Below are positions 3,711 to 44,323 of a stretch of DNA of 64,000 bases, in pieces (position 1 is the stretch's first letter; each line of letters begins with the position of its first letter). Below the pieces are notes generated by a model. The model searched no databases, was not told the origin of the DNA, and saw only the letters and a list, made by a program, of their open reading frames with translations. This DNA is from Prorocentrum cordatum (lineage: Eukaryota): assembly GCA_963575745.1 (NCBI GenBank), contig CAUYUJ010000004.1, forward strand, positions 372,001 through 436,000. The letters are read 5' to 3'. A program made the position numbers and the translations under genes.

Positions 3711-4020
3711 AAATGTGGCAAATGCCGTATGTTGTTGCACCCTGACCCCGCCGATCTGCGTGACGGGTGCCACAGAATTTCAGAAATGTGGCAAATCCCC
3801 TATGTTTTTGCACCCTGACCCCGCCGATTTGCGTGAGGGGTGCCACCGGATTTCAAAAATGTGGCAAATCCCGTGTATGTTTGGACCCTGACCCTGCAAA
3901 TCCTTTGTGTTTTTGGACCCTGACCCCGCCGATCTGCGTGAGGGGTGCCACCGAATTTCAAACATGTGGCAAATCCCATGTGTTTTTGGACCCTGATCCC
4001 GCCGTTTTGCGTGAGGGGTG
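3711..4020 (+). repeat. 73-bp satellite, continuation of 597-1135
   Basis: Same unit, resuming in register after the insertion. Confidence 0.85.
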
Positions 4021-4125
4021 TGAAGTTTTATCCACCCCAGAGCACACGTTCAGGGTGTGGTAAACATGCCTGTTTTGGGCCTCCCCCCCTCTCGCGGTCC
4101 ATTAAGAAGGAACAATAAGCAGCAA

Positions 4126-9141: not shown

Positions 9142-9264
9142 AAAGCATAATTGTAACAAGGAACAGTCAGCAGCAAACATGATGGACCCACGAACCCGGA
9201 AAGGGATATAGACATGTGGAGCATGGACACGTTTTCATGATACCCAACTGGGCAACACCTCACG

Positions 9265-9364
9265 NNNNNNNNNNNNNNNNNNNNNNNNNNNNNNNNNNNN
9301 NNNNNNNNNNNNNNNNNNNNNNNNNNNNNNNNNNNNNNNNNNNNNNNNNNNNNNNNNNNNNNNN
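9265..9364. other. Assembly gap (100 N)
   Basis: Run of N; continuity across it is unproven. Confidence 0.99.
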
Positions 9365-10412
9365 TGTGTTCCCGTGCTGGGGGTGTCCGTGCTGGGCCGT
9401 GGTCGTGCTGGGCGTGGTCGTGTGCTGTGCGTGGTCGTGCATGGGGGGGTCGGCTGGGTTGGTCGTCTGGGGTTGTCGTGCTGGGGTGTGGTCTTGCTGG
9501 GGTAGGGTCGTGCTGGGGTCGGGTCGTGCTGGGGTGTGGTCGTGCTGGGGTATGGTCGTGCTGTGTGGGGTCGTGCTGGGGTGGGGTCGTGCTGGGGTCT
9601 GGTCGTGCTGGGGTGTGGTCGTGCTGGGGTATGGTCGTGCTAGGGTGGGGTCGTGCATTTCGCTCGAGACATCTGCCAAAATTCCAGGAAATCGTACAAA
9701 AACAAACGAATTAGTCGAGACATCATCGAAATTCCTTCGCGCGGGGCGCTTTTCCGCGTCGCGGTCGGCTCTGCAAAACAAGCGTTTCGCTCGAGACATC
9801 CTCGGCAAACTCTGCGGAGCAAGCGTTTCGCTCGAGACATCCTCAACACACGAAAAAGTGGCCCGCACCCTGTGATTTATCGATCGGGATTTCAAAAACA
9901 AGCGTTTCGCTCGAGACATCCTCAAATTTTAATTCGCCGGCCTCCTTCGACCTCGTTATTTATCAGGGAAAAAATTCGCCGGCCTCCCTCAAGCAGGCAC
10001 CGGGGGACAGGTTTACCTACTAAAAGAGAACCCTGGGCCAAAGCCCTTTCCGGGAAAACAAAGGAATTAGTCGAGACATCATCGAAATTCCTTCGCGCGG
10101 GGCGCTTTTCCGCGTCGCGGTCGGCTCTGCAAAACAAGCGTTTCGCTCGAGACATCCTCGGCAAACTCTGCGGAGCAAGCGTTTCGCTCGAGACATCCTC
10201 AACTCTGCAAAACCAGCGTTTCGCTCGAGACATCCTCAACAAATTCTGAAAAAACAAGCGTTTCGCTCGAGACATCCTCAAATTTTAATTCGCCGGCCTC
10301 CTTCGACCTCGTTATTTATCAGGGAAAAAATTCGCCGGCCTCCCTCAAGCAGGCACCGGGGGACAGGTTTACCTACTAAAAGAGAACCCTGGGCCAAAGC
10401 CCTTTCCGGGAA
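9365..10412. mobile_element. Right portions of two nested subfamily II elements
   Basis: 15-bp GTGGTCGTGCTGGGG minisatellite (9365-9655), then two right ends (..TTTCCGGGAA at 10056 and 10412). A subfamily II left end lies at 9178, before the gap. Confidence 0.7.
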
Positions 10413-11890
10413 AAGACTACCATACAGCTCAACAAGTTCGTGGAATACGACATGACATGCTTGGTTTTACCGATCAATGTATTGAGCGCTGCCTGGAGTG
10501 CGCCTCCAAGCGTACCCAGGGGGCAGGGTCACGTCGTAAACGGTCCGACTCACCGAGGGCTTCGCGATCCAAATCGCCTAGCTCCTCCGGGTCGGTCGTG
10601 AGACCCACTAGTGCGCTCAACGCACGGTCACGATCATCCAGCCCAGCTGGATCGGTCGACAAACCTTCCACTACGACACAATCAACGACAGTCACATACG
10701 ATGACCTACCCGACGCCGAGACTCCTGGCATCGAGGACACCTCCTTTACCGAGTCCGATTATTCCGACGAGGGTATCCTCGGCCAGGACGCGGCGAGTGT
10801 ATTGATGAAGATTCTCTACCTGGCACGCCGTTGTCGTTTCGATCTTTTACATCCAGTATGTATGCTAGCCAGAGGATGACCAAATGGAATACCACGTGTG
10901 ATAAACGCCTCCATCGGCTGATATGATACATCAAAACGACGCGTACCCATTGTTTACATGGATGGATCGGCGATTCTTCTGACAAGCTATCCATCATGCT
11001 CTTCACTGACGCCTCGTTCGCCGATTGCATTACCTCCTCCAAGTCCACTACCGGCGTCTTCGCGGCGCTTGTTGGACCCAACGCGTTCTTCCCGGTCAAC
11101 GCCGTGTGCAAGAAACAAACGGTCGTATCGCACTCGTCCACAGAGTCCGAGATCGTTGCCCTTGACTCGGCACTACGACTGGAGGGACTACCACTACTCT
11201 CATTCTGGGAGGCCGTGGTGGAGGTTGCCAAGACCTGCAAAGAGAAGAATACTTGCCTGGGTTGCCTGGGACGCGCCGCCACGGCGATATGTCCAACATT
11301 GGCCGCCAAAAAGAAGAGGCGTAAGCCATCGCCTCGCAAGGCATCCCCCACACGGGGATCTTCTCCTAGCCGTAGGCAGCTACCGCTAAAGACGGAGCTA
11401 CCTGTGCCACCAAAGAGGCGCACGATATCCCATGAGGGTACCGTGTTACACGTGGAGCAAGAGCCCGCTCAGGAGAGCAGCTCTCCCAAAGTGTATCTCA
11501 TCGTCCTCGAGGATAACCAAGCCGTGATCAATATTGCCCAAAGTGACGTACACCCGCACTTCGTCATCTTCATCGTACTCATCGTATAAACTTGGATTGG
11601 ATATGTGAGACATGCCAATTTGAACATATTGAGCTCAAGTATGTAGGTACAAAAGAGCAACTTGCAGATATGATGATTAAACATGTTGAGCCGAAGAAAG
11701 CAGACCTCTGGAGGGATCTATTGGAGCACTCGCTCATATTTCCTGTTACCCCGTTACAGTGCGCTCCAAAGGATCCGAGGAGACCACTACGAGGGCCTCA
11801 GAGGCCCGATGGTATACCTCATATCGCAGAACCTCCAAAACTGGATGGATGTCCGGAGATATGTAAAATATTACTCACCGACAAAGAAAA
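10413..11890 (+). pseudogene. Ty1/copia pol remnant: RT C-terminus plus RNase H
   Basis: Motifs LMKILYLARRCRFDLLHPV, TKW..CDKRLHRLI*YI, FTDASFA..SKSTTG, KKQTVVSHSSTESEIVA, EDNQAVI, RHLHRTHRINLDWI and YVGTKEQLADMMIK. Frameshifts at ~10875 and ~11545; in-frame TGA at 10924. Confidence 0.92.
11859..11890 (+). repeat. 32-bp direct duplication, left copy (ATATGTAAAATATTACTCACCGACAAAGAAAA)
   Basis: Identical to 18886-18917. Confidence 0.95.
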
Positions 11891-13997
11891 CAGGATCGAC
11901 CCACGAACCTGGAAAGGAATATAGAAATGTAAGACATGGCAACGTTTCAAAGACACCTGATTGGGCGACGGGCAAATGCAATGCTTAGTGTATCGACCTT
12001 GATGTACCGTGCCGAGGGCTGTGCTGCGCTGTGCCGTGTTGTGGATCGAGTCCTCCCCTGCATCCGAGTCCTGACCGAACTGATCTGGATCTTAAGCTCG
12101 AGCTGCCTAAGCACATAACTAGTAGCTGCCCCAGAGTTGATTGACAAGGGAACATGCCAGGAGGACGCGCCGCAGAACGTCCCAAGGGACGCGCCAGGCG
12201 ACGTGCCAGGGGACGCGCCATGGGGTCGCACCGCGGGACGTGCCAAGGGGACGCGCTACGGAATGCGCCAATGGACGTGCCAGGGGACGTGCCAAGGGAC
12301 GCACCAAGCGAGGTGTCAGGGGACGTGCCACGGGGACGCACCGCGGGACGTGCCAAAGGGACGCGCTACGGAACGTGCCAATGGACGTGCCACGGGACAT
12401 GCCAGGGGACGCGCCGCGCGACGTGCCAGGGGGACTCGCCACAGGACGCGCCACGGAACGTGCCAAAGAACGTGCTAAGTTGCAATGCTGAATGAGTGTA
12501 TCGATCTTGATGTACCGTGCCGCGGGCTGTGCTGTGCTGCGCCGTGCTGAACTCCGATGTGCCACGTGATTGTGCTCTACCGCCGTGTGGATCGAGTCCT
12601 CCCCACGCATCCGAGTCCTGACCGAACTGATCTGGATCTTAAGCTCGAGCTGCCTGAGCACATAGTAGCTGCCCCAGAGCTAATTCACGGGAGCATGCTA
12701 GGAAGACGCGCCGCCGAAAGTTCCAAGGGGCGCGCCAGGCGACGTGCCAGGGGGCGCGCCATGGGGGCGCACCGCGGGACGTGCCAAGGGGACGCGCTAC
12801 TGAACGTGCCAATGCATTATGGACGTGCCACGGGACGTGCCAGGGGACGCGCCGCGCGACGTGCCAGGGGGACTCGCCGCAGAACGCGCCACGGAACGTG
12901 ACAAAGAACGTGCCAAGTTGCAATGCTGAGTGAGTGTACCGATCTTGATGTAATGTGCCGAGGGCTGTGCTGTGCTGCGCCGTGCTGAACTGCGATGTGC
13001 CATGCCGCGATTGTGCTCTACCGCGTTGTGGATCAAGTCCTCCGTTGCATCCGAGTCCTGACCGAACTGTTCTGGATCTTAAGCTCGAGCTGCCTGCGCA
13101 CATAGTCCACGAGGTAGCTGCCGCAGAGCTAATTGACAAGGAATTATGCCAGGAAGACGCGCCGCGGAACGTTCCAAGGGACGCGCCAGGCGACGTGCCA
13201 GGGGACGTGCCACGGGGACGCACCGCGAGACGTGCCAAGGGGACGCGCTACTGAACGTGCTGGGGACAAGCGTCGTGTTGGCGGCCTGGACACGTAAAAA
13301 CACAATGCCAGCTCGGGACAACCATGAGAGACCCCCTGGGTGGCCTGGACACGTAAAACACGTGGTTCCAGCTCGGGACAATCATGTTAGAGATCTCCCT
13401 GGGTGGCCTGAGCATGAAAGAACACGTGGTTCCAGCTCGGGACAGCCATGTTAGATACCCCTCTGCGTGACTTGGATACGCTGATTTCGCGCCCCCGCTC
13501 GAGACACCCTCGCGACGCCTTCCCTGGAGAGGCTCCCAAAGCGCACCCCCCTGTTCAGAGCAAGAAGCCATCACTTTTCCTCATAATTCGGCGTTGGGCC
13601 CGACGCCATGTTAGATGCCCCAACTCTGCAAAACCAGCGTTTCGCTCGAGACATCCTCAACAAATTCTGAAAAGCAAGCGCTTCGCTCGAGACATCCCCC
13701 AACTCTGCAAAACCAGCGTTTCGCTCGAGACATCCCCAACAAGTTATGAAACATGATGGACCCACGAACCCGGAAAGGGATATAGACATGTGGAGCATGG
13801 GCACGTTTTCACGATACCCAACGGGGCAACACCTCACGAAACATCCCACGAGACACCTCACGAAACATCCCACGAGACACCTCACGAAACATTCCGCGAG
13901 ACACCTCACGAAACATTCCAGGAGACACCCCGCGAAACATTCCACGAGACACCCCACGAAACATTCCACGACGACAGGCAACCACTCAACCAAGGCG

Positions 13998-15262
13998 GTG
14001 TGGTCGTGCTGGGGAGTGGTCGTGCTGGGGTGTGGTCGTGCTGGGGGGTGGTCGTGCTGGGGTGTGGTCGTGCTGGGGGGGTGGTCGTGCTGGGGGGTGG
14101 TTGTGCTGGGGCGTGGTCGTGCTGGGGCGTGGTCGTGCTGGGGCGTGGTCGTGCTGGGGTGTGGTCGTGCTGTGGTGAGGTCGTGCTGGGGTGTGGTCGT
14201 GCTGGGGTGTGGTCTTGCTGGGGTAGGGTCGTGCTGGGGTCGGGTCGTGCTGGGGTGTGGTCGTGCTGGGGTGTGGTCGTGCTGGGGTGGGGTCGTGCTG
14301 GGGTGGGGTCGTGCTGGGGTCTGGTCGTGCTGGGGTGTGTTCGTGCCGTGCTGGGTGGGGTCGTGCTGGGGGTGGTCGTGCTGGGGGTGGTCCGGTGGGG
14401 GTGGTCGTGCTGGGGCGTGGTCGTGCTGGGGGTGGTCGTGCTGGGGGGTGCGTGGCTGGGGGGTGTCGTGCTGGGGTGGTCGTGCTGGGGCGTGGTCGTG
14501 CTGGGGCGTGGTCGTGCTGGGGTGTGGTCGTGCTGTGGTGAGGTCGTGCTGGGTGTGTGGTCGTGCTGGGGTGTGGTCGTGCTGGGGTGGGGTCGTGCTG
14601 GGGTGGGGTCGTGCTGGGGTGTGGTCGTTCTGGGGTGTGATCGTGCTGGGGTGTGGTCGTGCTAGGGTGGGGTCGTGCTGGGGTGGGGTCGTGCTGGGGT
14701 GTGGTCGTGCTGGGGAGTGGTCGTGCTGGGTGTGGTCGTGCTGGGGTGTGGTCTTGCTGGGGTGGGGCCGTGCTGGTGTGGCGTTGCTGGGTGTGGTCGT
14801 GCTGGGTGCTCGCACCCTGTGAATTTATCGATCGGTCGTGCTTGGTGTGTCGTGCTGGGGTGTGGTCGGTGCTGGGTTTGGTGGTCGTGCTGGGGTGTGG
14901 TTCGTGCTGGGGTGTGGTCGTGCTGGGAGATGGTCGTGCTGGGTGGGTCGTGCAGGGCGTGGTCGTGCTGGGGGTGGTCGTGCTGGGGGTGTGTCCGTGC
15001 TGGGGGGTGGTTCGTGCTGGGGCGTGGTCCGTGCTGGGCGTGGTCGTGCTGGGGCGTGGTCGTGCTGGGGTGTGGTTCGTGCTGTGGTGAGGTCGTGCTG
15101 GGGTGTGGTCGTGCTGGGGTGTGGTCTTGCTGGGGTAGGGTCGTGCTGGGGTCGGGTCGTGCTGGGGTGTGGTCGTGCTGGGGTATGGTCGTGCTGGGGT
15201 GGGGTCGTGCTGGGGTGGGGTCGTGCTGGGGTCTGGTCGTGCTGGGTTGTGGTCGTGCTGGG
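13998..15262 (+). repeat. G-rich 15-bp minisatellite (GTGGTCGTGCTGGGG)n; also 15840-16536 and 17027-17757
   Basis: Tandem units. Each array follows a 12-bp CACGAAACATYC/CACGAGACACCY array. Confidence 0.95.
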
Positions 15263-15263
15263 G

Positions 15264-15301
<38 letters not shown>

Positions 15302-15579
15302 ATGGTCCGTGCTAGGTGGGTCGTGCAGTTCGCATCGAGACATCCTGCCTAAATTTCCAGTAAAATCGTGCAAAAACAAAGGAATTAGTCGAGACATCAA
15401 CGAAATTCCTTCGCGCGGGGCGCTTTTCCGCGTCGCGGTCGGCTCTGCAAAACAAGCGTTTCGCTCGAGACATCCTCGGCAAACTCTGCGGAGCAAGCGT
15501 TTCGCTCGAGACATCCTCAACACACGAAAAAGTGGCCCGCACCCTGTGATTTATCGATCGGGATTTCAAAACCAAAAAA

Positions 15580-18318
15580 CATGATGGACCCACGAACCCG
15601 GAAAGGGATATAGACATGTGCAGCATGGTCACGTTTTCACGATATCCAACTGGGCGACACCTCACGAAACATCCCACGAGACACCCCGCGAAACATCCCA
15701 GGAGACACCTCACGAAACACCCCACGAGACACCTCACGAAACATTCCACGAGACACCCCGTGAAACATTCCACGAGACACCCCACGAACAGGCAACCACT
15801 CAACCAGACACCCCACGACACATTCCACGGGGGTGCGACTGGGTGTGGTCGTGCTCGGGGTGTGGTCGTGCTGGGGGGGGTGGTCTGGCAGGGGTGGGTC
15901 GTGCTGGGGGGGTGGTCGTGCTGGGGGGTGGTTGTGCTGGGGCGTGTCGTGCTGGGGCTGGTCGTGCTGGGGCGTGTCGTGCAGGGTTGTGGTCTTGCTG
16001 TGGTGAGGTCGGTGCTGGGTGTGTCGGCTGGGGTGTGGTCTTGCCTAGGTGGGGTCCGTGCTGGGTGGGGTCGTGCGGTGTGGGGTCTGCTGGGGTGTGG
16101 TCGTGCTGGGGTGTGGTCGTGCTGGGGTGTGGTCGTGCCTGGGGTGTGGTTCCCCCCCCCCCCCCCGTGCTGGGGAGTGGTCGTGCTGGGGTGTGGTCGT
16201 GCTGGGGCGTGGTCGTGCTGGGGGGTGGTCGTGCTGGGGGTGTGGTCGTGCTGGGAGGTGGTCGTGCTGGGGCGTGGTCGTGCTGGGGCGTGGTCGTGCT
16301 GGGGCGTGGTCGTGCTGGGGTGGGGTCGTGCTGGGGTGGTCGTGCTGGGGTGTGGTCGTGCTGGGGTGTGGTCTTGCTGGGGTAGGGTCGTGCTGGGGTC
16401 GGGTCGTGCTGGGGTGTGGTCGTGCTGGGGTATGGTCGTGCTGGGGTGGGGTCGTGCTGGGGTGGGGTCGTGCTGGGGTCTGGTCGTGCTGGGGTGTGGT
16501 CGTGCTGGGGTATGGTCGTGCTAGGGTGGGGTCGTGCATTTCGCTCGAGACATCCTGCCAAAATTCCAGGAAATCGTACAAAAACAAACGAATTAGTCGA
16601 GACATCATCGAAATTCCTTCGCGCGGGGCGCTTTTCCGCGTCGCGGTCGGCTCTGCAAAACAAGCGTTTCGCTCGAGACATCCTCGGCAAACTCTGCGGA
16701 GCAAGCGTTTCGCTCGAGACATCCTCAACACACGAAAAAGTGGCCCGCACCCTGTGATTTATCGATCGGGATTTCAAAAACATGATGGACCCACGAACCC
16801 GGAAAGGGATATAGACATGTGGAGCATGGACACGTTTTCACGATACCCAACTGGGCAACACCTCACGAAACATCCCACGAGACACTTCACGAAACATCCC
16901 ACGAGACACCTCACGAAACATTCCACGAGACACCTCACGAAACATTCCACGAGACACCCCGCGAAACATTCCACGAGACACCCCACGAAACATTCCACGA
17001 CGACAGGCAACCACTCAACCAAGGCGGTGTGGTCGTGCTGGGGAGTGGTCGTGCTGGGGTGTGGTCGTGCTGGGGGGTGGTCGTGCTGGGGGGTGGTCGT
17101 GCTGGGGGGGTGGTCGTGCTGGGGGGTGGTCGTGCTGGGGCGTGGTCGTGCTGGGGCGTGGTCGTGCTGGGGCGTGGTCGGTGGGGCGTGGTCGTGCTGT
17201 GGTGAGGTCGTGCTGGGGTGTGGTCGTGCTGGGGTGTGGTCTTGCTGGGGTGGGGTCGTGCTGGGGTGGGGTCCTGCTGGGGTGTGGTCGTGCTGGGGTG
17301 TGGTCGTGCTGGGGTGGGGTCGTGCTTGGGGTGGGGTCGTGCTGGGGTGTGGTCGTGCTGGGGTGTGGTCGTGCTGGGGTGTGGTCGTGCTGGGGAGTGG
17401 TCGTGCTGGGGTGTGGTCGTGCTGGGGGGTGGTCGTGCTGGGGGGTGGTCGTGCTGGGGGGGTGGTCGTGCTGGGGGTGGTCGTGCTGGGGCGTGGTCGT
17501 GCTGGGGCGTGGTCGTGCTGGGGCGTGGTCGTGCTGGGGTGTGGTCGTGCTGTGGTGAGGTCGTGCTGGGGTGTGGTCGTGCTGGGGTGTGGTCTTGCTG
17601 GGGTAGGGTCGTGCTGGGGTCGGGTCGTGCTGGGGTGTGGTCGTGCTGGGGTATGGTCGTGCTGGGGTGGGGTCGTGCTGGGGTGGGGTCGTGCTGGGGT
17701 CTGGTCGTGCTGGGGTGTGGTCGTGCTGGGGTATGGTCGTGCTAGGGTGGGGTCGTGCATTTCGCTCGAGACATCCTGCCAAAATTCCAGGAAATCGTAC
17801 AAAAACAAACGAATTAGTCGAGACATCATCGAAATTCCTTCGCGCGGGGCGCTTTTCCGCGTCGCGGTCGGCTCTGCAAAACAAGCGTTTCGCTCGAGAC
17901 ATCCTCGGCAAACTCTGCGGAGCAAGCGTTTCGCTCGAGACATCCTCAACACACGAAAAAGTGGCCCGCACCCTGTGATTTATCGATCGGGATTTCAAAA
18001 ACAAGCGTTTCGCTCGAGACATCCTCAAATTTTAATTCGCCGGCCTCCTTCGACCTCGATATTTATCAGGGAAAAAATTCGCCGGCCTCCTTCAAGTTGG
18101 CACCGGGGGATTAGGTTTACCAACTAAAAGAGAACCCTGGGCCGGCGCCCTTTCCGGGAACAAGCGTTTCGCTCGAGACATCCTCAAATTTTAATTCGCC
18201 GGCCTCCTTCGACCTCGTTATTTATCAGGGAAAAAATTCGCCGGCCTCCCTCAAGTTGGCACCGGGGGACAGGTTTACCAACTAAAAGAGAACCCTGGGC
18301 CGGCGCCCTTTCCGGGAA
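15580..18318. mobile_element. Subfamily II element, nesting level 3
   Basis: Inserted after GGGATTTCAAAACCAAAAAA; the host resumes with CAAGCGTTTCG at 18319. Confidence 0.75.
16781..18160. mobile_element. Subfamily II element, innermost uninterrupted copy (1380 bp)
   Basis: Flanks GGGATTTCAAAAA + CAAGCGTTTCG rebuild the empty site seen at ~9886-9910 and ~17989-18012. 11-bp inverted repeat CCCGGAAAGGG / CCCTTTCCGGG. Confidence 0.85.
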
Positions 18319-18885
18319 CAAGCGTTTCGCTCGAGACTTCCTCAAATTTTAATTCGCCGGCCTCCTTCGACCTCGTTATTTATCAGGGAAAAAATTCGCC
18401 GGCCTCCCTCAAGCAGGCACCGGGGGATTAGGTTTACCAACTAAAAGAGAACCCTGGGCCGGCGCCCTTTCCGGGAAAAAAACAAGCGTTTCGCTCGAGA
18501 CATCCTGTCAAAATCCTAAGAAATCTAAATTCCTGCGCGCGGGGCGCAGCACGCGCGAGACATCCTCATAATTCCTGCGCGAGGGGCGCTTTTCCGCGTC
18601 GCGGTCGGCTCGGCAAAACCAGCGTTTCGCTCGAGACATCCTCAACAAACTCTGAGACCAAGCGTTTCGCTCGAGACGTCCCCAACACTGCAAAAACCAG
18701 CATTTCGCTCGAGACATCCTCAACACATTCTGAAAAACAAGCGTTTCGCTAGGGACATCCTCAAAAATAATTCCGCCGGCCCTCTTCCCGCACGTAATTT
18801 ACCGCAGAATAATTTCGCCGGCCCTCTTCCCGTCGAAACCGGGGGGTAAACAAACTAGAAGAGAACCCTGGGCTCGAGCCCGTTC

Positions 18886-21800
18886 ATATGTAAAATATTA
18901 CTCACCGACAAAGAAAAATGGGGCGAGGTAGGATCAGAATGCGGATTCCTGTGTGTTGGACAAGCCAATCACGAGGGCGTATGTGCATGCATGTACCATA
19001 TCGGTGTTCCTGCTGCGGCTACCGATTCGCGCACACCTCGATCGAGGGCACGTTCACCGCACGGTAGACACCACCGTCATCCTCCCTCACCACCGCATGA
19101 TACAGAGAGGTCTAGGACACTTATCATCCGGTTCCGCCGCAGCTGTTTTACCACTCGAGCGGCGAAGCTCACCAGCATCTTCTTGCTCGCTGTGTGCGAG
19201 ACGCAATCAAGTGAGATCGGTTCTAACCCCGATCCCCCCATCCTCGAGATGGACCAGGCATCGCCGCTCCACCTTGACGGTTGGGCCATCGCCTACGACG
19301 CCACTTACGACCCGAACGCCAAGGACGACGACCGCGTGGGCTTCACGTACCACGCTCAGACGGGTCGTCCTCGCGGTCCCGAGGATGGCTTCACTTACGT
19401 ACATCATCTGCGCTTTGATCGAAGTGCAGAGTATGATCTACGTGTGCCCGACGAATCCACCATTGTCGAGGTTACCCGCTCCGCGTCCGCCGACGTGACG
19501 AGTTGGATCGGCAAAGTTGATGGAGGAGTCGGCGGCGACGCCAGCTACGAGTACAGTGCGACTACGGCCACGCCGTGGATGCCATTCATGAAAGCCATGT
19601 GCATGATCTCCAGCCTCTTCACGCGTAATTCTTCTGTACAAGAAAACGTTCATGGCTTACATGGTCACTTGCATGCTGTGATTCCAAACTCACACCGCAA
19701 GTGTCCACCAATGGAGCTTACGACGGTGGTATTAAAGGCGGAGTGGATGATGATGCACAACGATTGGTCAAAAGTGGGCAGTGCATTTCTTGGGCAATAT
19801 GCTGAGGACAGCGTTCAGGATACAAACTACGTGTACAAAGATGGGCTTTGTGCGCCTCACGATGTGTACAGTAATGGATTGACGACTCCCAGCTACGCAC
19901 CAAAACTTGATCGCGCTGCGATCAAACTACCCGCGCGCCCACCTGGCATGGCCAGGACATCGGATACTGCGGGACACCTCGACCACGTTGTCGAGGATAA
20001 CCTCGTCACCGACGTGAGGGCGTTTTCCGATATACACCAGACAAACACATTCCGCCGCAAGCTCAGTACGTGGTTGACCGCACGCGGAGGATTTGGAGGC
20101 ATCGGATCAGGCCCCAAGACGGTGGCAACACCATCCGATCACCTAGACCGCTGGACAATCCTCCCAGAGCATGACGAGAATCATTGGCAGCCATACGAGG
20201 AGGGCTTTGTGCTCCCCGGAGAAACGCCTACCAAGGAGGACCCTTGTCTTATTCCTGGTGCTGCTGTTGATCCGCTAGAGCTCGCACAATCAAAATGCAG
20301 CGCGTTTTGCGGTGGTCGATTGGTTTCTACCCTTCTTTCAGACAACGGGTGGCTTGCACTCGTACAGGAGGACCTGGGACTCCTTCTTCACCATGCCTTT
20401 GGACCGTCAGGTCACGCATACAAATGGACAAACCTGCGCACGGACTCCACGTGGATCATGCATCCCAGGAAAGGGTCCAAGACCGCCGCGCATGAGAAGT
20501 ACCCCAGCCACGGCGTCGACGAGCTCAACAGCTCACAGAAGCGAGATGCTCTTGCTAAGGCATCAAATGTTGGCCTCGTACCTCTATTTTTGCCGTGCCT
20601 CAACCGTGCAGAATGCATCGGCGGCGCCACCCTCGAGCATTTGTCGACCGTCATCCGCGACAACATTATGATGTGGGCATTCTCTTTTGGCAATTACAAA
20701 GAATGGTTCAAACAGAACGACGCGGCGATTGGCCAGGACTGCATTCTATTGCCAGGGGCTGGTGGCGACACCCGCTGTGGTATGGCACAGCTCCGTGAGC
20801 AGCGTACGCAGGCACAGGAGAACCGTATCGCAGCTATCCTCGCAAACCAGTCTGAGTCAACACTCGAGCAGCGCAACATGATCCTCATGATCCGCAAGGC
20901 CAGGGGTTTAACGCTGATGAACGACAATGCTTATATGAAAGAGTGGCGTATATTAAATGAGCTTATATGGGAATATCGGGCTAAAGAATTTCTTGCATTT
21001 GTGAAACAAAGACACTACTGCAGAGGCCTCGACGCCCCTGGTGGCATGGAGCGCAAACGACATTGCGTGTGCTAATCATGGTCAGACCATGTTGGACACA
21101 CGTGGCCATCAGGATCGCGCCCGTACTTCCGTGCGCGAGCTCATCAAGATGGAACGCCAGGGTGGCGTCCCGACGCTTATGCCAGTACATGTGCAAGTGG
21201 ATTTGTCACGCTTTATTGGCGTGATGCCGTACTTTCGTTGCCCCACCGTCATGGGGCCAGGCAAAGCGGCACAATGGGGCGTACACCCAAATTTCGACTA
21301 CCACACGGGCGACCTGATCAAGACGATGCAATCGCGTGGTGTCACAGTTCTTCCCTCAGACCACTGGATTGATGCGTGCGACAGAGTCGCGCCTCAGGCT
21401 TGGCATTCAAAACAGAATAATCACAATCTGGCGACGATCCCGACTCAGTTTTGTGATGCAGTATGCTACCGCAATTTCTGTGCATTGATCCAGCCATTAC
21501 CATCGCAGCTTTATCCATTCCGACCTCCTATCCTGATTCCGGTCACGGACACACAGGCCTACACCCAGGCCGCAGAGATTGTGGAGGCTCTTCAAATTCG
21601 TGAGAAGATGACCAACGAGTGGAAGAGGAATCTCAGCCTCACGACGCTGATGACTCAGACTGCAGGAGAAATTGCTCACTGTGCCTGGATGGCATCTCGC
21701 GCCAGCGGTACTTTGCCGAAATCAATGCCGTTGGCAACAAGCGATCCATGCATGACCATCCCTGGACTCGCAAAAGAGCCACCAGCACCAGATCTTAGCG

Positions 21801-24800
21801 ATCCTACAAAGGCTATTCCTGCTAACGATCCATTCGGCCATGCATGCGACGAGTTGTTCAACCATCTTCTCCTTCTGATCAACGACTACCCCGGGGCGTG
21901 GGCATCTTGGGAATCACCTGAAAAGAGAGAGCTCTTTCACCCCAAAATCGTGAAAGAAATTCAGGGTGCACACGCTGTTGCCTGGGTCGTGTACGAGCAG
22001 TTCCTGCACCAGATGACTTGGACGGCGATGGCGAATCGACCAAATCACGCATCATTGCAGAACGCAACAGATTGAACTCTCATCCTATTGGTCCTCGTAT
22101 TGACAACCAAGACACCATTACAGCATGCAAAGGTTTCTTTACACAGAACGCCTTGGATCGGCTTGCATTGGGACTCGAGGCAGACGTTCCATCTACCGTC
22201 TGGCGCGCGGCAGCTGGGACAGATCAGCAGACCGAGGACGGGCAGCCACTGCCGCCAGGCCCACTGCCTGATGCACTGCCGCCAGGCCCGCAGCCGATCC
22301 CACTACCAGAGCCGCTGCCGCCTGGCCCGCTTCCGATTGGCACGCCAGCCGACCCATCGCCACCAGACCCGCTACCGACAGCCGCGTCAGTCCCGATCCC
22401 CGATGACGACACTGACGTGGAGGCGGCGGAGCTGGAGGCAACTCCTGCCGACGACGGACCTTCTCCCGATCAGCAATCGGATACGGTATACATACTGTCG
22501 CGGCAAGACTGTTGCGAGCGTTCCTTACATGAGGACACCAGCCAGATCCCGACATTGGACAATGCGTGCGCTCCTCGTGAGTACAAGCTTCAAGCAGGTC
22601 ACGCGGATGATCATCCATACGTCCCTCCACCGTTGCGGGGCACGTCCGCGACCAATGGCATAGCTTGCTTGCAGGGCGATGAATGGACGAGCCAATTGTC
22701 ATACGACGATTGTGTGATCGCCCATGCGCCTGACATCGTTCAATCTGGTTGCTTCCCAGAGTGGAAGTGGATATCGCTCCCGCCGTGCGACGGGGTGCGC
22801 TACGGACCTGAGCTGATCGAGGAATGGCTTGGCGACCCTGTTTGGATGAGCAAAGACATCACGACGATGCTACGTCATGAGATCCACTACAAAAAGTTCC
22901 ATATTAATCAGCACACTTGGAAGATGCCCAGCAACTGGAAATAATTTCAGGATATGGTCCAGTGGAAGTTTCAAGAGCGCGCACTCCACAATGGACCATC
23001 CACCGAGGCGGCCATGGCACACTTCAAAAAGGACGGTGAGCCAGACGGATATACGGACTGGACTAATTACTACCCGATCTTCGTCATTCGTGCATTCCAG
23101 AAGCACATTGACCCGCAGAAGAACCGGCTCGAGATATATGCCAAACCAGTCCCCGACGCGGGCGATCCCAGCTGCTTCGACTGGAACAGCGTTATCGCTA
23201 TCAAATGCGTCGGAGGTCTCAGTTGCGTCAATCCACTCTCCAAACCGTGGAATATGGGCTGGGAGAGCTTACAATGGACAGACGTGAAGTACCTCCACCA
23301 CGGCACGACACTTCGTGCCTGGCGAAGCATCCTCAAGTCAGGGAGTATTCCAGGCTGTATTGATCCGTCTTCTCAGAGAGACAAACACTTCCGAGGATCA
23401 CCACGCGCGGAGGCATTCTTCAGTTCCAGCACCTACGTAGACAACGCTCAAAAGAATCCTCACATCTCGGTACAATCGTACAAGTTCAAGCACTACAAGA
23501 ACGAGGTAGAGCTGGTAATCAACATGGAGATTGCCACAAAGGCTGGATGCAGATTTTGGCTGGGAGGGAGCACAAGGTGCTACTATGACTGAGGACGTGG
23601 TCCCAGCCGCCGCAGTAATCGCCATTCGCCGTCTCACACCACGCAGTGAGCATGGCAGGCAGATATGGCCAGAGGGCACTACTTGGGTTCACCCGCCACT
23701 GGCTGCGAGACAACCATTGAGCAAATACGAGATTTGCGCTGTTCCTCCTGGGACAGACACAATCGATGACCCTCCTGGGATTGCCCCAACTGGCGTGGCC
23801 TACGACACGGCTCAGCAGACACAGACACAGTCCGCCTCAGCATCATCGGCCCAGCGGCCAATCGCCCCTCAGCTGGGGGCGACCCCCGCTGGCCACACAT
23901 CTGACGCCGACGCTTTAGATGAGACGATGGTCCGTGCTATAGTCAACAGTTGTGGGCACAACACACAGGATAAATAATGGTTGATAGCTATACCACATTG
24001 CAGAGAGGCCCTGCGACCCATCACATCAAATATTACACAGAAAGATTGGGGTCGAAGGCCTATCTTCAATGATGTTTGCATGGGGGACTTCGTTATCGTC
24101 AAAAATTGTGGCTCTACCAATTGCTACCACTATGACAATGACTTCCCCAAGGGCGACTACAATGCGAAGGTGCGCATGAACAAGGGCCATATTTATGGAC
24201 CAATCATCTATGTCGGAGTCTCCGAGAAATTCTTTGCGGTACAAATACCTATTCTCAACTACGGTTTACGATGGGTAAACATATGGTACTGCGACAAAAA
24301 CATGCCCCTCATGGGCGTTGTCTTCGCTTTGCCAGTACGTGCCGGCATCGACTCGAGCCACATGAATGTTGCACTTGAGGGCCCCTCTTCATGCAGCGAC
24401 CAGATCTATAAGTATAAAGAATCACGTGATCTACCATATCTTGGAATGCCGAGCATTTACAAACCACGTATCCCACGTGCGCCGACCAGACGCCCCGCTC
24501 CTCGGACACCCGATCCCGACGAGCTGGTGGCAATACCTGCCGAGGCTCCCACAGCAGACGACGAGGGATCCCGACAAGAGGCAGGCCAATCCAAAGAGCC
24601 TCTGGTAATTGTCATTGTGGATATATCGACTATACCACTCACAGATGAGGAGAAAGCAGCCAATGATACCATGAAGGCGGATTGGTCGGCAGAAATTCAC
24701 GCTGATGAGGACATCGGCTCGAGCATCATTGATCATATTATGGACCCGCCAGAGGATTTCCTCAACCACCCCGACTATGAGCCAGAGGATGGTACAATAT

Positions 24801-26968
24801 GGATCTTGCAATCCTACGACCACCGCATATACCGCTGGACGTCGGAGATGTTGGTGGACTCACCAATGATAAAGGTAAAGCAAATTATTGAAGTACACAC
24901 TGGCAGGACCAACATCGCGGTGGACAAGGTAGAGTCATACTTACGATTTGAGATACAATTTTGACCAAAAACTGACGTATACCAAATGGATTACAATCGT
25001 ACCCACAAATGGGCACGCGACAAACCGATTTGCAGTGCAAATTGTTTCTTTAAAAAGATGGTACACTACCTGGGTCCGGGAGTCATCGAGGAGTCGACCA
25101 CAGGCATCTTCCATTGGAATTCCAAAGTGTACCAAATCATATTGTTGGACAGCATCAAGGAGCTACGTGATTTCACAAATGGTGCTATCTATCAGAACCA
25201 GCCTGCCCTCAATACGTTGCGTGATCTCTTCGCAAATTGCATCCAGACACACGGCAACCCAGGCTTCCCCGCATGGAGGGAGCCGGTGGAGACACCTGCC
25301 GCGCCTGACCAGGACGACCCAGGCGCCGAGCAGGATATCCCCAGGGACCCAGGCAGCGTTGCTTCCGCAGCACCTGACCAAGAAACCATGGTACAGATCA
25401 TAGCCGATAAAAAGAAGATTGACCGCAAGGCGGGCGACAATGAGGCCATCTTGCAGGCAGAGGCTACCCGCATCCGTACGGACAACATACACCATGGTGC
25501 TACTGATATTGCGGACACAGACACCTCCGGGTACGCAGGACTACCGGGGGAAAGACTGTCTAGGATCGAGATCGAGGGGGCCGGCCGATCGATCGCCTCA
25601 CGCCCGACCGCTGAGATCAATCGTTATGCCATGGACCAAGTGGGCCGTGTTCTCGCCAGCGGCCTTGACACCCGCTGGGGATCTCGCGAGCACCTTGCGA
25701 TCTCTGGGGCCCCTGAAGAGATCCAGCATGATATAGCGCGATGTCGGACTTGCGATTGTCTTCTATCTCTCGGAATCGTCACAGGTGACGGTACAATTTG
25801 TGACATCTGCTGGCAGTACACTGTCGCTGTAGGTGCTACCGGCAAAGGTGGCGCCGCCGAGAGCGACCTTGCATACCTCCAGAAGTTGACCCACTGGATC
25901 AAGACGACCCTCTCCCGGGACGACATCACAAGGTATATGACAGATGGAGCGCATGTCCAGATGATGGGCAAGCGCTCCATAGCTGGTCAGGAAAAGGATA
26001 CCTTGAGGAGATTCGCGAAGAAAGCTGCGGAGAGGTATCAGAAGTGGGTCGACGCAGGCTCCCCTCCTGCACACATGTGCAGGCTGATGGGTGAGACTGA
26101 GGACGACAGACCTCTATGCCACCCCTTCGCCAATCTCGTTCAGCGTTTCCTGAGCGATGTGCGGTTCCACCGCCAAATGACAGCCGCTCGCGCTGAGACT
26201 GGCAAAAAGGCCTTCACCGTCGAAGACATGCGTGATGCTCGTGATATTCACGATCACAGCGTCAGGCAGGGCTTTGCTGGTCGGAGGAAGTGGTGGTTGA
26301 ACGCAGGTAGACTCGATAGAGGCACTAGGCAAGAGCGTGGACTTATCACAATTGCCCTTCCCCGCGGGGATGGCACTTGCGAGAAAGTCGCGCAGCGGAA
26401 GCTTGCCGCACTAGCCTCCATCGAACTTGCCGTGGGTTCTGCAAATCAAAGGGGGGTGCGTTCAGGGATTAGAGCCGATCCGATCGATCCTGATACACAC
26501 TCTTCACATTCACATGGCGCCATGGAGCCGCGGCAGCCGCGGCGCCCGCCGCCGCCGCGCCCTGCTCCTGGCGACGCTGCTGGATCCCGCGCCTCTGGCG
26601 CGCAGGATGACACGCCCGCTGGGCCGCGCGGTGCCGCCGCGCAGCGGCAGAGCAGCGATGCCAGCCGCAGACCAACAACGCCCCCTCGTGCCAAGAGGGC
26701 GCGCAGGACAGAGGACTACGCGACGCGGTGGCGCAAGAACCTAGAGGGGAGCCAGTGGGGCCCCAGATGCTGGGGCTACTATGCCAAATGCTGGATATAC
26801 ATCGCGGACAACAATGATGAGTTCGTGTACGTCCGCGACTTGCTGCACAACGATAGGTTTCGCCACTGGGCCCCCAGGGCGCCCTGGGAGACTTTCGCGA
26901 CGAGCTGCGTCGCGGAGGATGGCCGCAGGGCGTGGGGCCAGAGATTCTACGCGAGAGGCAACACGTAG
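18886..26968 (+). pseudogene. ~2,700-codon C-terminal extension of the copia pol ORF, decayed
   Basis: Seven abutting + ORFs (18991-21075, 21041-22075, 22018-22944, 22954-23592, 23531-23977, 23981-24964, 24986-26968). They are joined by three in-frame stops (22942, 23975, 24962) and three frameshifts. In frame with RNase H across the duplication. Confidence 0.75.
22846..23640 (+). pseudogene. Tpt1/KptA RNA 2'-phosphotransferase-like domain
   Basis: Motifs in Tpt1 order: SKDITTMLRH, PDGY, KNRLEI, IKCVGGLS (cf. IRAxQGHS), YLHHGTTLRAWRSILKSG, RAEAFFS, LVINMEIATKAGCRFW and GATMTEDVVPAAAV. Confidence 0.72.
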
Positions 26969-27727
26969 TCTAGTCGGCCGCAAGGCCCACCGCTCGATTG
27001 GCATGAACTTCATATTTATGCAAGTTCGCCTCGAGCGGTGAATAACAATATAATCTTAGGCCACTTCACTATTCAAGAAAAGTGGCCATACTTATACATG
27101 TGAAACCCAAGGCAGCCTCCTCAGGGACAACGCCGATGGGGAGTAACAAATTGCAGAATTTGTTTACGCAGCTTTTCGTGTTTGTCAACACGTCTTTACG
27201 CATGGCCATGCACTTTTTGCTGTGAGATTTAGACGTGCTTCTTAACGCGATCGTGTTCATCAACACGACTTCATAATGCGTTTTTTTTTGTTTTTGCATT
27301 ACATTGCGTTGAGAATGATATGATGCCCAGCTCTCGCTGGAGAGCCGGTGGCAACACCTGCCGCGCTCAGGCGCGGCAGCTTTTGATGTTGCTTTAATTT
27401 GATCCGATCCTCTTGCTCCGCCCACCCGTGTCTCATTCTTCTCCGCCCTCGAGTGCCGAAGCGTTTTTTTTGGGGGCGCGCCGAGGGGGCACCAAAGTAT
27501 GCTTGGCGAAGAAACAGGGGCCCTGGGTGTTCCTTCTTACCTTTTCTTGCCTATTCGTGACAGCCTTGTGCTGCGTTTGCTTTTGCACACCGCTGTCGCG
27601 ATTGGGGCGCAGCTTAAGCGATGCAGATTTCAAGCTCAGCTGCCCTGCAGACCCGAGGATTCGAGGAGTAAAAGGGTGACGGGTTCTTTTCTCCTGTTCC
27701 CGAGTCCTGCCCTCGCGGACGGGATTC

Positions 27728-27835
27728 GGGACGGGGGGCGTGAATAGAACCCGTATAATACCCTCATATATACTCCTTATCCTCACCTCTCCAGCGCCTG
27801 GCCGTTTGGGCTCAGCTATTGGACTAGATCGATCA
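27728..27835 (+). mobile_element. Polypurine-tract-like run plus candidate short 3' LTR (TG at 27741)
   Basis: GGGACGGGGGGCG is directly followed by TGAATAG. The end could be ..GATCA (27835) or ..ATCCA (27868). No 5' LTR in the window to confirm it. Confidence 0.45.
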
Positions 27836-27939
27836 GACCTTTGATCGTGCAGGAGGAAAAGATATCCATCTTGCCCTCCTTTCCTCTACCAGCGGATCAG
27901 GGGTTCTGTACCTTTGTGCTCTAACCCCATACACAACGT

Positions 27940-28140
27940 CCGCCCGCCAGCGGGGGAGGGGTCAAAGAGAAGGGGTGCCCCTTCGACTCGGTTGCGACAT
28001 TGCCAAATTTTGCTTTCGCTGACAAGCTTGCGGAGAAGGGCGCAAAGAAAGGGGGCGACGGAGGCGACGGCTGACGGAGACGACGAATCGAACATACAAT
28101 ACCCTCACGCACGCTGACAGAGTTGAACAGTTGGTGGATT
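27940..28140 (+). repeat. Dispersed ~200-bp repeat, homologous to 39570-39750
   Basis: Shared GGG.TCAAAG.GAAGGGG...CCCTTCGACTC and a ..CACGCYGACAG..GGYGGATT end. Confidence 0.6.
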
Positions 28141-43906: not shown

Positions 43907-44241
<335 letters not shown>

Positions 44242-44301
44242 AGAAAACAAGTTTCGGCAGCAGAGGCGAGTAGCTTGCCCTTGATATCCTCCTCACCCTC
44301 C

Positions 44302-44323
44302 TCCGCCGCCGTTTTGGCTCAAA
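44302..44323 (+). other. Relict dinoflagellate spliced leader
   Basis: TCCGCCGCCGTTTTGGCTCAAA matches DCCGTAGCCATTTTGGCTCAAG at 18/22, ~90 nt upstream of ATG 44416. Confidence 0.7.

What the first reader, a model, noticed from the sequence alone, without database searches (positions are those of the whole stretch)
10413..27835. Removing a 7-kb insertion fuses copia RNase H in frame to a ~2,700-aa cargo ORF: a giant copia
Seen: an exact 32-bp duplication (11859-11890 = 18886-18917) brackets the repeat stack. Excising it gives ..QLADMMIK..DGCPEICKILLTDKEKWGEVGSECGFLCVGQANHEGVCACMYHIG.., running straight into the 694-aa ORF. Six more ORFs follow with only single stops or frameshifts, then ~770 bp of UTR, a G-rich tract and TG. 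Known: copia pol normally ends shortly after RNase H. Inference: this is one polyprotein with a very long multi-domain tail, invisible in the ORF track.
Basis: partly seen in the sequence, partly recalled or inferred. Interest (0 to 1): 0.82.

Follow-up and report, generated by a model that had tools for sequence, protein, structure and literature searches.

The report
Copia retrotransposon with 2,600-residue extra tail
A dead, broken copy of a high-copy copia-type retrotransposon whose pol gene, unlike ordinary copia, runs on in frame into about 2,600 further codons of conserved protein of unknown function, which would make it an unusually large-coding member of a well-known class of mobile DNA.

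Summary
An exact, unique 32-bp direct repeat (11859-11890 = 18886-18917) flanks about 7 kb of satellite-rich repeats. Both copies are read in the same codon phase by the ORFs on either side.

Other copies lack the insertion. Four contigs of run X1, and the protein fragments P0040 and P0088, join the pol side directly to the right side. The split falls inside pol's C-terminal Cys motif. More distant copia relatives stop just after that motif. This lineage runs on through an ~80-residue linker into ~2,570 codons, ending at a stop (26966) whose preceding C-terminal residues match another copy (P0121).

Five of the six tail lesions in the window (three stops, three frameshifts) are continuous in other copies. 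Listed indels among copies keep the frame inside the ORF, and the two listed downstream of it do not. Contig depth is repeat-like up to about 28.19 kb and jumps at about 27.74 kb, as an LTR would.

The window copy is 5'-truncated at ~10414, with no gag, protease, integrase or RT core. No 5' LTR or PBS could be checked.

The tail has no family match above threshold, only a sub-threshold Tpt1/KptA-like stretch. A separately expressed downstream ORF starting at ATG 19249 is not excluded.

The parts
8951..10414 (.). Repeat stack A. It is the same repeat family as the 7-kb block, holds an N gap at 9265-9364, and abuts the 5' truncation point of the copia piece.
   Evidence: 9894-10058 = 10250-10414 exactly. 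9673-9972 is 100% identical to 17776-18075.
10415..11890 (+). Copia pol fragment: end of RT/linker, RNase H and the start of the pol C-terminal tail. Lesions: frameshifts near 10870 and 11545, and TGA at 10924.
   Evidence: tblastn of the copia relative P0102 (1250 aa) places only its residues 878-1207 at 10424-11738. P0001 matches with E=4e-79 at 62% identity, and RVT_2-bearing P0005 with E=2e-23.
11859..11890 (+). Left copy of the exact 32-bp direct repeat.
11891..18885 (.). About 7 kb of inserted repeat stack: four units, each starting with AAACA(T/G)GAT(G/C)GACCCACGAACC (at 11888, 13749, 15577, 16778), plus 16-bp satellite arrays and other repeats.
   Evidence: Absent from other copies.
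18886..18917 (+). Right copy of the exact 32-bp direct repeat.
18940..19005 (+). Pol C-terminal Cys motif (ECGFLCVGQANHEGVCACMYHIG). In more distant relatives the protein ends here.
   Evidence: P0003 ends ..CCTDCGFVINGDQCPCNWG. P0005, P0101 and P0102 end ..CDSCGFIVSGGQCACSW. P0040, P0029, P0037, P0049 and P0088 carry the motif and run on.
19006..19248 (+). Basic, Arg/Ser/Pro/His-rich linker of 81 codons, open in frame, with no Met.
   Evidence: It is open in P0029, P0037, P0049, P0055 and P0088. The indels listed here among copies are +1/-1 paired within 4 nt, and -3.
19249..21036 (+). Tail part T1, starting at ATG 19249 (MDQASPL..). Conserved, with no known family.
   Evidence: 73 relatives at E<=1e-3. 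P0022 (749 aa) is 39% identical over query residues 137-726. No Pfam match.
21038..22072 (+). Tail part T2, reached through a window frameshift near 21037.
   Evidence: P0022, P0068, P0046, P0074 and P0081 are continuous across the shift.
21922..22941 (+). Tail part T3. The frameshift from T2 lies somewhere in 21925-22072 and is not bridged by any fetched protein. It contains a Pro-rich variable stretch at 22393-22466 and ends at TAA 22942.
   Evidence: Loose ends appear on both sides of 22393-22466 in X1 and X2. P0104 reads S at the stop.
22963..23635 (+). Tpt1/KptA-like stretch (sub-threshold), crossing the window frameshift near 23562.
   Evidence: PF01885 scores E=3.5e-4 and 21.1 bits against a cut-off of 26. 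hhalign to E. coli KptA gives P=0.0012 and probability 19%. The MAFFT alignment is collinear. P0105, P0106, P0114 and P0131 are continuous across the shift. A 4-nt deletion at 23562 is seen in 4 X1 contigs.
23636..26968 (+). Tail parts T5-T7, with window stops TAA 23975 and TGA 24962. The natural stop is TAG 26966.
   Evidence: P0114 and P0127 read K/E at 23975. P0111 reads G at 24962. P0121 ends ..YARGNA where the window ends ..YARGNT. 29 relatives were found.
26969..27740 (+). Non-coding 3' region ending in the G-rich tract 27721-27740 (a polypurine-tract candidate).
   Evidence: The single-nt indel listed in this stretch is at 27380.
27741..28193 (+). LTR-like high-copy segment starting with TG. 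The likely end is near 27929-27935 (..CATACACA). Repeat depth is gone by 28194.
   Evidence: Depth is 241 at 27633, 7996 at 27755 and 7857 at 27840. The bin mean is 2010 for 27835-28193 and 0 for 28194-28552. The end position is inferred. A start near 27480-27500 is not excluded, since depth at 27499 is 2749.

Best explanation
The window holds one dead copy of a high-copy Ty1/copia-lineage LTR retrotransposon. In this lineage the pol reading frame does not stop after RNase H and its short C-terminal Cys motif. It continues through an ~80-residue basic linker into ~2,570 further codons (about 2,680 codons past the junction). It ends at a stop (26966) whose preceding C-terminal residues are shared by another copy. 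After that come ~770 nt of non-coding sequence, a G-rich tract, and a TG-initiated LTR-like segment.

This copy has several lesions:
- It is cut off at its 5' side at ~10414, inside the end of RT.
- It is split by a ~7-kb satellite-rich insertion flanked by a 32-bp duplication of the target.
- It carries five frameshifts and four in-frame stops.

**Shown:**
- the duplication and the in-frame fusion;
- uninterrupted junctions in other copies;
- continuity of the tail at 5 of 6 lesions;
- conservation of the tail as protein;
- repeat depth that ends near 28.19 kb.

**Inferred:**
- The tail is made as part of the Gag-Pol polyprotein, more than 3,900 residues in all, and is perhaps released by the element's protease.
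- The segment from 27741 on is the 3' LTR.
- A full element is about 13-15 kb.

The tail's function is not established. Its only lead is a divergent Tpt1/KptA-like (NAD-dependent RNA 2'-phosphotransferase / ADP-ribosyltransferase fold) stretch, probably without the canonical catalytic Arg-His.
For: **Junction.**
- The 32-bp repeat is exact, unique and in phase.
- Four X1 contigs carry CCAAAACTGGATGGATGTCCAGAA just before 18886, matching window 11835-11858 at 22 of 24 positions.
- P0040 reads PPKLDGCREVCKILLTEKEKWGEVGSEC.. across the junction. P0088 residues 1-76 map to 11670-11891 and residues 67-139 to 18889-19131.

**Copia identity.**
- Of 21 hits to the RNase H ORF, 2 carry PF07727 in the precomputed annotation.
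- P0102 residues 878-1207 map collinearly to 10424-11738.

**Extension specific to this lineage.**
- P0003, P0005, P0101 and P0102 end at the Cys motif.
- P0029, P0037, P0049, P0055 and P0088 run on in frame. P0088 is only 35-44% identical and has W where the window has the Met.

**The tail is coding and single-frame.**
- P0022 is 39% identical over about 600 residues and continues into the next window ORF.
- Other copies read a residue at all three window stops and are continuous at two of the three frameshifts.
- Of the 12 indels listed out of 71, the 10 inside the ORF are +1/-1 pairs, multiples of 3, or the -4 that undoes the window's shift. The 2 downstream of the ORF are single -1.

**Repeat unit.** Depth is in the hundreds to thousands from 18860 to 28193, with no LTR-like peak between pol and the tail. 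It jumps about 7-fold or more by 27755 and is zero after 28193.
Against: - No full-length copy was seen. The window has no gag, protease, integrase or RT core, and no 5' LTR or PBS to match.
- LTR limits rest only on summed contig depth. No second copy of the segment exists in the window.
- An ATG at 19249 opens the conserved part, and P0022, P0027, P0039 and P0075 begin with M at that place. This fits a separate ORF. The ORF callers behind these fragments seem to force an M start, so it is ambiguous.
- The T2-to-T3 frameshift is not bridged by any fetched protein.
- All bridging fragments are short (244 aa or less). It is not known whether the EukProt-labelled ones derive from RNA or DNA.
- The tail has no family match above threshold, and both structure predictions were poor.
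Confidence: 0.7

Rival explanations
1. Same element, different expression. The tail is a separate sense additional ORF between pol and the 3' LTR, as in env-like ORFs of Sireviruses. It would be translated from ATG 19249, for instance from a spliced or internally initiated RNA. The open linker frame would then be incidental, or the pol stop would have been lost only in a sub-lineage.
For: The Met at 19249 aligns with the first residue of P0022 (39% identity), P0027, P0039 and P0075. More distant relatives end pol at the Cys motif. Sense additional ORFs in that position are a known class (PMC7264820, abstract and passages read).
Against: There is no stop between the Cys motif and the ATG in the window, P0029, P0037, P0049, P0055 or P0088. 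P0088 has W in place of the Met, and P0055 lacks that stretch yet stays in frame. The indels listed in the linker keep the frame. Many fragments start with M where the window has L or I (P0029, P0110). That suggests forced M starts, so the shared M is weak evidence.
Confidence: 0.2
2. The ~7-kb block is not a biological insertion at this locus. It would be an assembly or scaffolding artefact, a repeat contig placed between two contigs that overlap by 32 bp. The locus would then really be uninterrupted.
For: 32 bp is an unusual length for a target-site duplication and is close to common k-mer overlaps (own knowledge). The window is scaffolded, with an N run at 9265-9364. The block and stack A share 100%-identical stretches.
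Against: There is no N run at either edge of the block. No other isolated duplicate of that kind occurs in the window. The block starts exactly at the conserved 5' start of a repeat unit that recurs four more times. No read-level test of the two edges was possible, because the single read-laying run began at 18860 and lists no evidence either way.
Confidence: 0.15
3. Chance neighbourhood. A copia fragment happens to lie next to an unrelated gene or another mobile element, and the in-frame reading is coincidence.
For: The tail has no retroelement domain. P0022's 2265-nt contig shows no pol.
Against: The same pol-to-tail junction recurs in four X1 contigs, in P0040, and in the divergent P0088 lineage. 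The pol Cys motif lies on the tail side of the split. Contig depth is continuous from the junction to the LTR-like segment.
Confidence: 0.03

Closest known systems
Canonical Ty1/copia (Pseudoviridae) LTR retrotransposons
   Same: The RT-linker and RNase H piece is homologous to RVT_2-bearing polyproteins. It has a copia-type C-terminal pol region with a Cys motif shared with relatives. A G-rich tract followed by TG and a high-copy terminal segment is present.
   Different: Pol runs on for about 2,680 more codons instead of stopping. Relatives P0003, P0005, P0101 and P0102 stop at the Cys motif. The 5' half of the element was not seen.
LTR retrotransposons with sense additional ORFs between pol and the 3' LTR (Sirevirus env-like ORFs; plant aORF-3S; captured ORFs in bdelloid rotifer elements)
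   Same: Extra coding sequence in sense lies between RNase H and the 3' LTR and is present in many copies (PMC7264820, abstract and passages; PMC5408684, search listing and abstract only).
   Different: Here the extra part is in frame with pol with no stop. It is about 2,570-2,680 codons long, far longer than such ORFs as I recall them. It has no transmembrane-like segment: 0 windows of 19 residues reach mean hydropathy 1.6.
Chromoviruses (Ty3/gypsy with a chromodomain fused to the integrase C-terminus)
   Same: They are a precedent for an extra domain fused in frame to the end of pol (own knowledge; not tested here).
   Different: They belong to a different superfamily. The addition is a single small domain of known function, not a multi-kilobase orphan region.
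Tpt1/KptA RNA 2'-phosphotransferase family (PF01885)
   Same: The weak similarity is collinear over 22963-23635, including IAI(K/R)CVGG~IRAVQGHS, LHHGTT~LYHGTA and GCRFWLGAQG..MTE~GLPFWQAENGVWLT.
   Different: The score is below Pfam's cut-off (21.1 against 26 bits). The MAFFT alignment puts H-N under KptA's R-H. The fold was not confirmed (pLDDT 33.7). The stretch is embedded in a retrotransposon polyprotein.

Membership tests
Ty1/copia LTR retrotransposon | RNase H and RT-RNase H linker homologous to copia polyproteins | tested here: met
   One search gave 21 hits, the best E=4e-79. P0005 and P0013 carry PF07727. In one search, P0102 residues 878-1207 map collinearly to 10424-11738.
Ty1/copia LTR retrotransposon | RVT_2 reverse transcriptase core in the element | tested here: inconclusive
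   The window copy is truncated. Only the last part of the RT region remains (P0102 residues 878-966), and there is no Pfam hit in the window. P0017, of the same lineage, extends further into RT.
Ty1/copia LTR retrotransposon | Domain order gag-protease-integrase-RT-RNase H | not testable with these tools
   The 5' part is absent from the window. No genome is held, and metagenome scans were empty.
Ty1/copia LTR retrotransposon | Two direct LTRs (TG..CA), with a PBS after the 5' LTR and a PPT before the 3' LTR | tested here: inconclusive
   Only a 3' candidate was found: a G-rich tract at 27721-27740, TG at 27741, a depth jump at about 27.74 kb and a depth end by 28.19 kb. There is no second copy in the window.
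Sense additional ORF / env-like ORF of LTR retrotransposons | Extra sense coding region between pol and the 3' LTR, present in many copies | tested here: met
Sense additional ORF / env-like ORF of LTR retrotransposons | Separate ORF, with a pol stop upstream and its own start | tested here: inconclusive
   No stop lies between pol and ATG 19249 in the window or in five other copies. The Met is shared with P0022, P0027, P0039 and P0075.
Sense additional ORF / env-like ORF of LTR retrotransposons | Transmembrane segment(s), as in env-like proteins | tested here: not met
   A Kyte-Doolittle scan with 19-residue windows found 0 windows at 1.6 or more in all seven tail ORFs.
Tpt1/KptA (PF01885) | Pfam score at or above the gathering cut-off (26 bits) | tested here: not met
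   21.1 bits and E=3.5e-4 on P0108. 13.6-14.2 bits on the window ORF, P0105 and P0106.
Tpt1/KptA (PF01885) | Collinear alignment to a bona fide member, including the HGT motif | tested here: inconclusive
   hhalign to E. coli KptA gave probability 19% and P=0.0012 over 64 columns. MAFFT was collinear over the whole domain.
Tpt1/KptA (PF01885) | Catalytic Arg-His dyad and two further Arg (residue set recalled from the literature, not taken from a call) | tested here: inconclusive
   MAFFT puts ALHNGP under KptA VLRHKP. The IRAVQGHS Arg is K in the window but R in P0103 and P0104. The fourth Arg could not be placed.
Tpt1/KptA (PF01885) | Two-lobed Tpt1 fold | tested here: inconclusive
   The AlphaFold2 model had mean pLDDT 33.7 and was unusable. 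No PDB sequence hit was found.

The most novel reading that the evidence does not exclude
The ~2,570-residue tail is a functional, multi-domain enzymatic module that this copia lineage acquired and fused to pol. It would include a Tpt1/KptA-derived, NAD-dependent domain that modifies nucleic-acid ends. The module would be made as part of a polyprotein of more than 3,900 residues. It would give the element a replication or host-evasion step that no described LTR retrotransposon has.
Probability: 0.15. Interest if true: 0.85.

Novelty: new variant of a known kind. Interest (0 to 1): 0.6.

Why it matters
Ty1/copia elements are regarded as compact, with pol ending just after RNase H. Additional ORFs in LTR elements are usually short, separate, and of env-like or unknown role.

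Here a high-copy copia lineage shows about 8 kb of extra, conserved coding sequence in frame with pol. That would roughly triple the coding capacity of a copia element. The added protein has no recognisable family match above threshold, so it is a large block of orphan protein sequence that has been kept in frame across diverged copies.

It matters in three ways:
- It is a concrete case for asking how retrotransposons gain new protein modules.
- It would let one test whether such a module acts in reverse transcription, RNA handling or host defence evasion.
- It is a practical warning for annotation. ORF tracks and LTR finders tuned to 5-10 kb elements would miss or split elements like this.

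Tried and rejected
- **Whole genome.** None is held, so no genome-wide copy census or 5' LTR search was possible.
- **Six-frame Pfam scan of 1-12 kb.** It failed because of stop codons. I replaced it with ORF-wise scans and tblastn with copia relatives.
- **Metagenome scans.** The 16-sequence alignment A2 was not accepted as a query. The two-sequence alignment A3 matched 395 pattern stretches, but none was a relative. The LTR-start DNA pattern gave 0 matches.
- **Viral contigs.** A3 matched 83 pattern stretches with no relative. The last tail ORF matched no pattern.
- **ESM Atlas.** No usable hit for the 667-aa ORF or for P0022.
- **PDB sequence searches.** P0105, P0022, P0109, the 356-aa ORF and profile A5 gave nothing below E=0.09, and nothing meaningful.
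- **AlphaFold2.** The Tpt1-like stretch had mean pLDDT 33.7. T1 had 47.1, with only a C-terminal helical part (about residues 460-595) confident. I ran no fold search because the models were too poor.
- **Alignment A7.** This alignment of 69 fragments was visibly misaligned, with identities of 8-20% for fragments reported at 60-70%. I dropped it and used A2 instead.
- **RNA evidence.** No RNA holder was listed among the sequencing runs.
- **Earlier findings of this scan.** Nothing by place, sequence or words.
- **Paralogues.** No copy of the tail or of the LTR-like segment exists elsewhere in the window.
- **Literature.**
  - No paper held 'retrotransposon' + 'Tpt1' + 'polyprotein'.
  - The search for copia + retrotransposon + Pyramimonas gave one unrelated paper.
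  - The listings of the searches showed no title or abstract describing a copia with a multi-kilobase in-frame tail.
  - One search was rejected for a term's syntax.
- **Codon positions of best-supported substitutions.** I considered using them as a test of selection. I rejected this because those rows are changes private to the decaying window copy.

Full report
**Observation**

The 32-mer at 11859-11890 recurs exactly at 18886-18917 and nowhere else in the window. Its flanks are unlike each other. Among 139 two-copy exact repeats of 24 nt or more, it is the only isolated pair outside the satellite and repeat families.

The repeat begins at codon position 1 in both ORF 11547..11924 and ORF 18859..21075. 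The two copies lie 7027 nt apart.

The intervening ~7 kb is a stack of repeats: four units that share a defined 5' start, 16-bp satellite arrays, and other minisatellites.

Downstream, seven + strand ORFs follow each other. They are separated by three in-frame stops (TAA 22942, TAA 23975, TGA 24962) and three frameshifts (near 21037, within 21925-22072, near 23562). The frame closes at TAG 26966. The coding path has 3 stops in about 2,683 codons, against 33-106 in the six fixed reading frames of the same stretch.

**What the left side is**

Pfam finds nothing in the three ORFs of 10289-11924. A search with ORF 10927..11589 found 21 longer proteins. The best was P0001 (E=4e-79, 62% identity). 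Two of the 21 (P0005, P0013) carry PF07727, the copia-type reverse transcriptase family.

tblastn of the 1250-residue relative P0102 places only its residues 878-1207 on the window, at 10424-11738. It runs through three frames, with shifts near 10870 and 11545, and there is a TGA at 10924. No gag, protease, integrase or RT core is found anywhere in the window.

The copy is thus cut off at ~10414. That is exactly where another stack of the same repeat family ends. P0017, a fragment of the same lineage, continues upstream into RT where the window has the repeat stack.

**Does the insertion really split pol?**

Yes. The more distant relatives P0003, P0005, P0101 and P0102 all end with a Cys motif (..C..CGF…C.C.W) about 45 residues after the ADLMTK motif. 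The window has that motif (ECGFLCVGQANHEGVCACMYHIG) at 18940-19005, just right of the right-hand repeat.

Uninterrupted copies exist.
- **DNA.** Four contigs of run X1 that match from 18886 onward carry, just before it, CCAAAACTGGATGGATGTCCAGAA. This equals window 11835-11858 at 22 of 24 positions.
- **Protein.** P0040 (82 aa) reads straight across the junction. P0088 (244 aa) maps with residues 1-76 to 11670-11891 and with residues 67-139 to 18889-19131.

**Does the frame really run on?**

In the relatives named above the protein stops at the Cys motif. In this lineage it does not. The window, P0029, P0037, P0049, P0055 and P0088 are all open beyond it.

P0088 is only 35-44% identical, yet it keeps recognisable linker residues (RSR.L..R, TTR..L, IGS). 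It enters the first residues of the conserved part with W where the window has Met.

Only 12 of the 71 indels among copies are listed. In the linker these are a +1/-1 pair four bases apart and a -3, so all keep the frame.

**Is the tail one gene in other copies?**

A search of 1.84 billion representatives with the 738-residue ORF gave 73 hits at E<=1e-3, 47 at <=1e-10 and 13 at <=1e-30. Only one of the 73 is longer than 333 residues. That one, P0022 (749 aa, on a 2265-nt contig), is 39% identical over query residues 137-726. It continues in a single frame into the window's next ORF.

The window's lesions compare with other copies as follows:

| Window lesion | State in other copies |
|---|---|
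| Frameshift near 21037 | Continuous in five proteins (P0022, P0068, P0046, P0074, P0081) |
| Frameshift within 21925-22072 | No bridging evidence. No search was made with 21419-22866, and no fetched protein covers it |
| TAA 22942 | P0104 reads S |
| Frameshift near 23562 | Continuous in P0105, P0106, P0114 and P0131. Four X1 contigs lack 4 nt there |
| TAA 23975 | P0114 reads K and P0127 reads E |
| TGA 24962 | P0111 reads G |
| Natural end, TAG 26966 (not a lesion) | P0121 ends ..YARGNA where the window ends ..YARGNT |

Inside the ORF, the 10 listed indels are compensating pairs, multiples of three, or the frame-restoring -4. The two listed downstream of the ORF (27380, 27840) are single-base.

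**Is the tail part of the same mobile unit?**

On 18860-29600, 5245 contigs of X1 and 697 contigs of X2 (a marine metagenome) were laid at 80% likeness or more. Summed depth is in the hundreds to thousands in every bin up to 28193. It is zero in 28194-28552.

There is no LTR-like depth peak between pol and the tail. Depth is 241 at 27633 but 7996 at 27755 and 7857 at 27840. This fits an LTR that starts at the TG at 27741, right after the G-rich tract 27721-27740.

The bin mean of 2010 for 27835-28193 suggests that the high-copy part ends near 27930, where ..CATACACA offers a CA end. This is inference. A start nearer 27480-27500 (depth 2749 at 27499) cannot be excluded. No second copy of the segment exists in the window, so the LTR is not proven.

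**What the tail is**

None of the seven ORFs, nor P0022, has a Pfam match above threshold. There are no PDB sequence matches, no ESM Atlas neighbours, and no relatives in viral or JGI metagenome contigs. No transmembrane-like segment was found.

The one lead is 22963-23635.
- **Pfam.** Read through the TAA as X, it matches PF01885 (Tpt1/KptA RNA 2'-phosphotransferase) at E=3.5e-4 and 21.1 bits. The cut-off is 26 bits.
- **hhalign.** Against E. coli KptA it gives P=0.0012 and probability 19%.
- **MAFFT.** The alignment is collinear, including IAI(K/R)CVGG under IRAVQGHS and LHHGTT under LYHGTA. It puts H-N under KptA's R-H.

The AlphaFold2 model of this stretch was unusable (pLDDT 33.7). The T1 model was confident only for a C-terminal helical part. 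I rate real homology to the Tpt1/KptA fold at roughly even odds, and canonical activity as doubtful.

**Most likely mechanism**

The family is a copia lineage in which pol's stop after the Cys motif has been replaced by a linker and a large captured or evolved coding region. The polyprotein would therefore exceed about 3,900 residues: 1,250 or more for the incomplete relative P0102, plus 81, plus about 2,572. This figure is inference.

The copy in the window is a relic. It is 5'-truncated, split by a repeat-stack insertion with a 32-bp target duplication, and carries nine point lesions.

The rivals are set out in the report sections:
- a separately expressed ORF starting at ATG 19249;
- an assembly artefact that accounts for the 7-kb block only;
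- chance adjacency, which is close to excluded.

**Comparison with what is known**

Sense additional ORFs between pol and the 3' LTR are a known class (PMC7264820, abstract and passages read; PMC5408684, listing and abstract only). In-frame C-terminal additions to pol are known from chromoviruses (own knowledge).

None of my six accepted literature searches listed a copia with a multi-kilobase in-frame tail. None listed a retrotransposon with a Tpt1-like domain either. These searches cover only the held library.

I therefore call it a new variant of a known kind.

**Provenance**

The nearest fragments carry the EukProt label EP00959 Pyramimonas sp. CCMP1952, as given by the source. Whether they derive from RNA or DNA is not known to me.

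Noticed in passing
window 9175, 11888, 13749, 15577, 16778 (unit starts); 8951-10414 and 11891-18885 overall: A composite repeat with a sharply defined 5' start (AAACATGATGGACCCACGAACCCGGAAAGGGATATAGACATG..) but variable upstream context. Each unit carries arrays of a 16-bp satellite (GTCGTGCTGGGGTGTG) and 41-nt repeats. Long exact internal duplicates (16338-16782 = 17559-18003; 9894-10058 = 10250-10414) point to very recent duplication or conversion. The family was not identified, and its two right-hand edges (10414, 18885) end at different points of the terminal motif.
   Followed up: partly
window 4000-5130, 6970-7600, 12119-13300: The same 12-bp-type minisatellite (GGGACGTGCCA-like, translating to runs such as GTCQG/RAKGR) occurs in three places. 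The repeat-rich region therefore extends well upstream of the finding.
   Followed up: no
window 34001-38000: Extremely GC-rich stretch (GC 0.76-0.84 in 2-kb windows) with long open frames on both strands of low complexity.
   Followed up: no
window 59418-62231 (-): A 938-residue open frame with a weak PIF1-like helicase match (PF05970, E=0.0066, below cut-off). It is possibly another mobile element, Helitron-like. Other long open frames without any Pfam match lie at 44176-47114 (+) and 53469-56284 (+).
   Followed up: partly
window 22393-22466: A Pro-rich stretch of the tail where contigs of both runs break away on both sides with shared alternative sequence. This suggests a hypervariable or replaced segment between subfamilies. 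The 21732-22090 bin just upstream has the lowest depth in the tail.
   Followed up: no
protein P0007 (relative found): Another copia relative runs on for roughly 280 residues after the RNase H ADLMTK motif, with sequence unlike the tail studied here. C-terminal pol extensions may be more widespread in this copia clade.
   Followed up: no
window 8071-8782 and 5600-6400: A 73-bp tandem repeat that stays open in several frames (GATPHADPRGQGPKT.. type translations). It is probably non-coding satellite.
   Followed up: no
window 27543-27644: In the 3' non-coding region, one X1 contig replaces 100 nt with 39 other letters, and depth there drops to 241 between two high-depth stretches. This looks like a subfamily-specific segment just upstream of the LTR-like part.
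   Followed up: no
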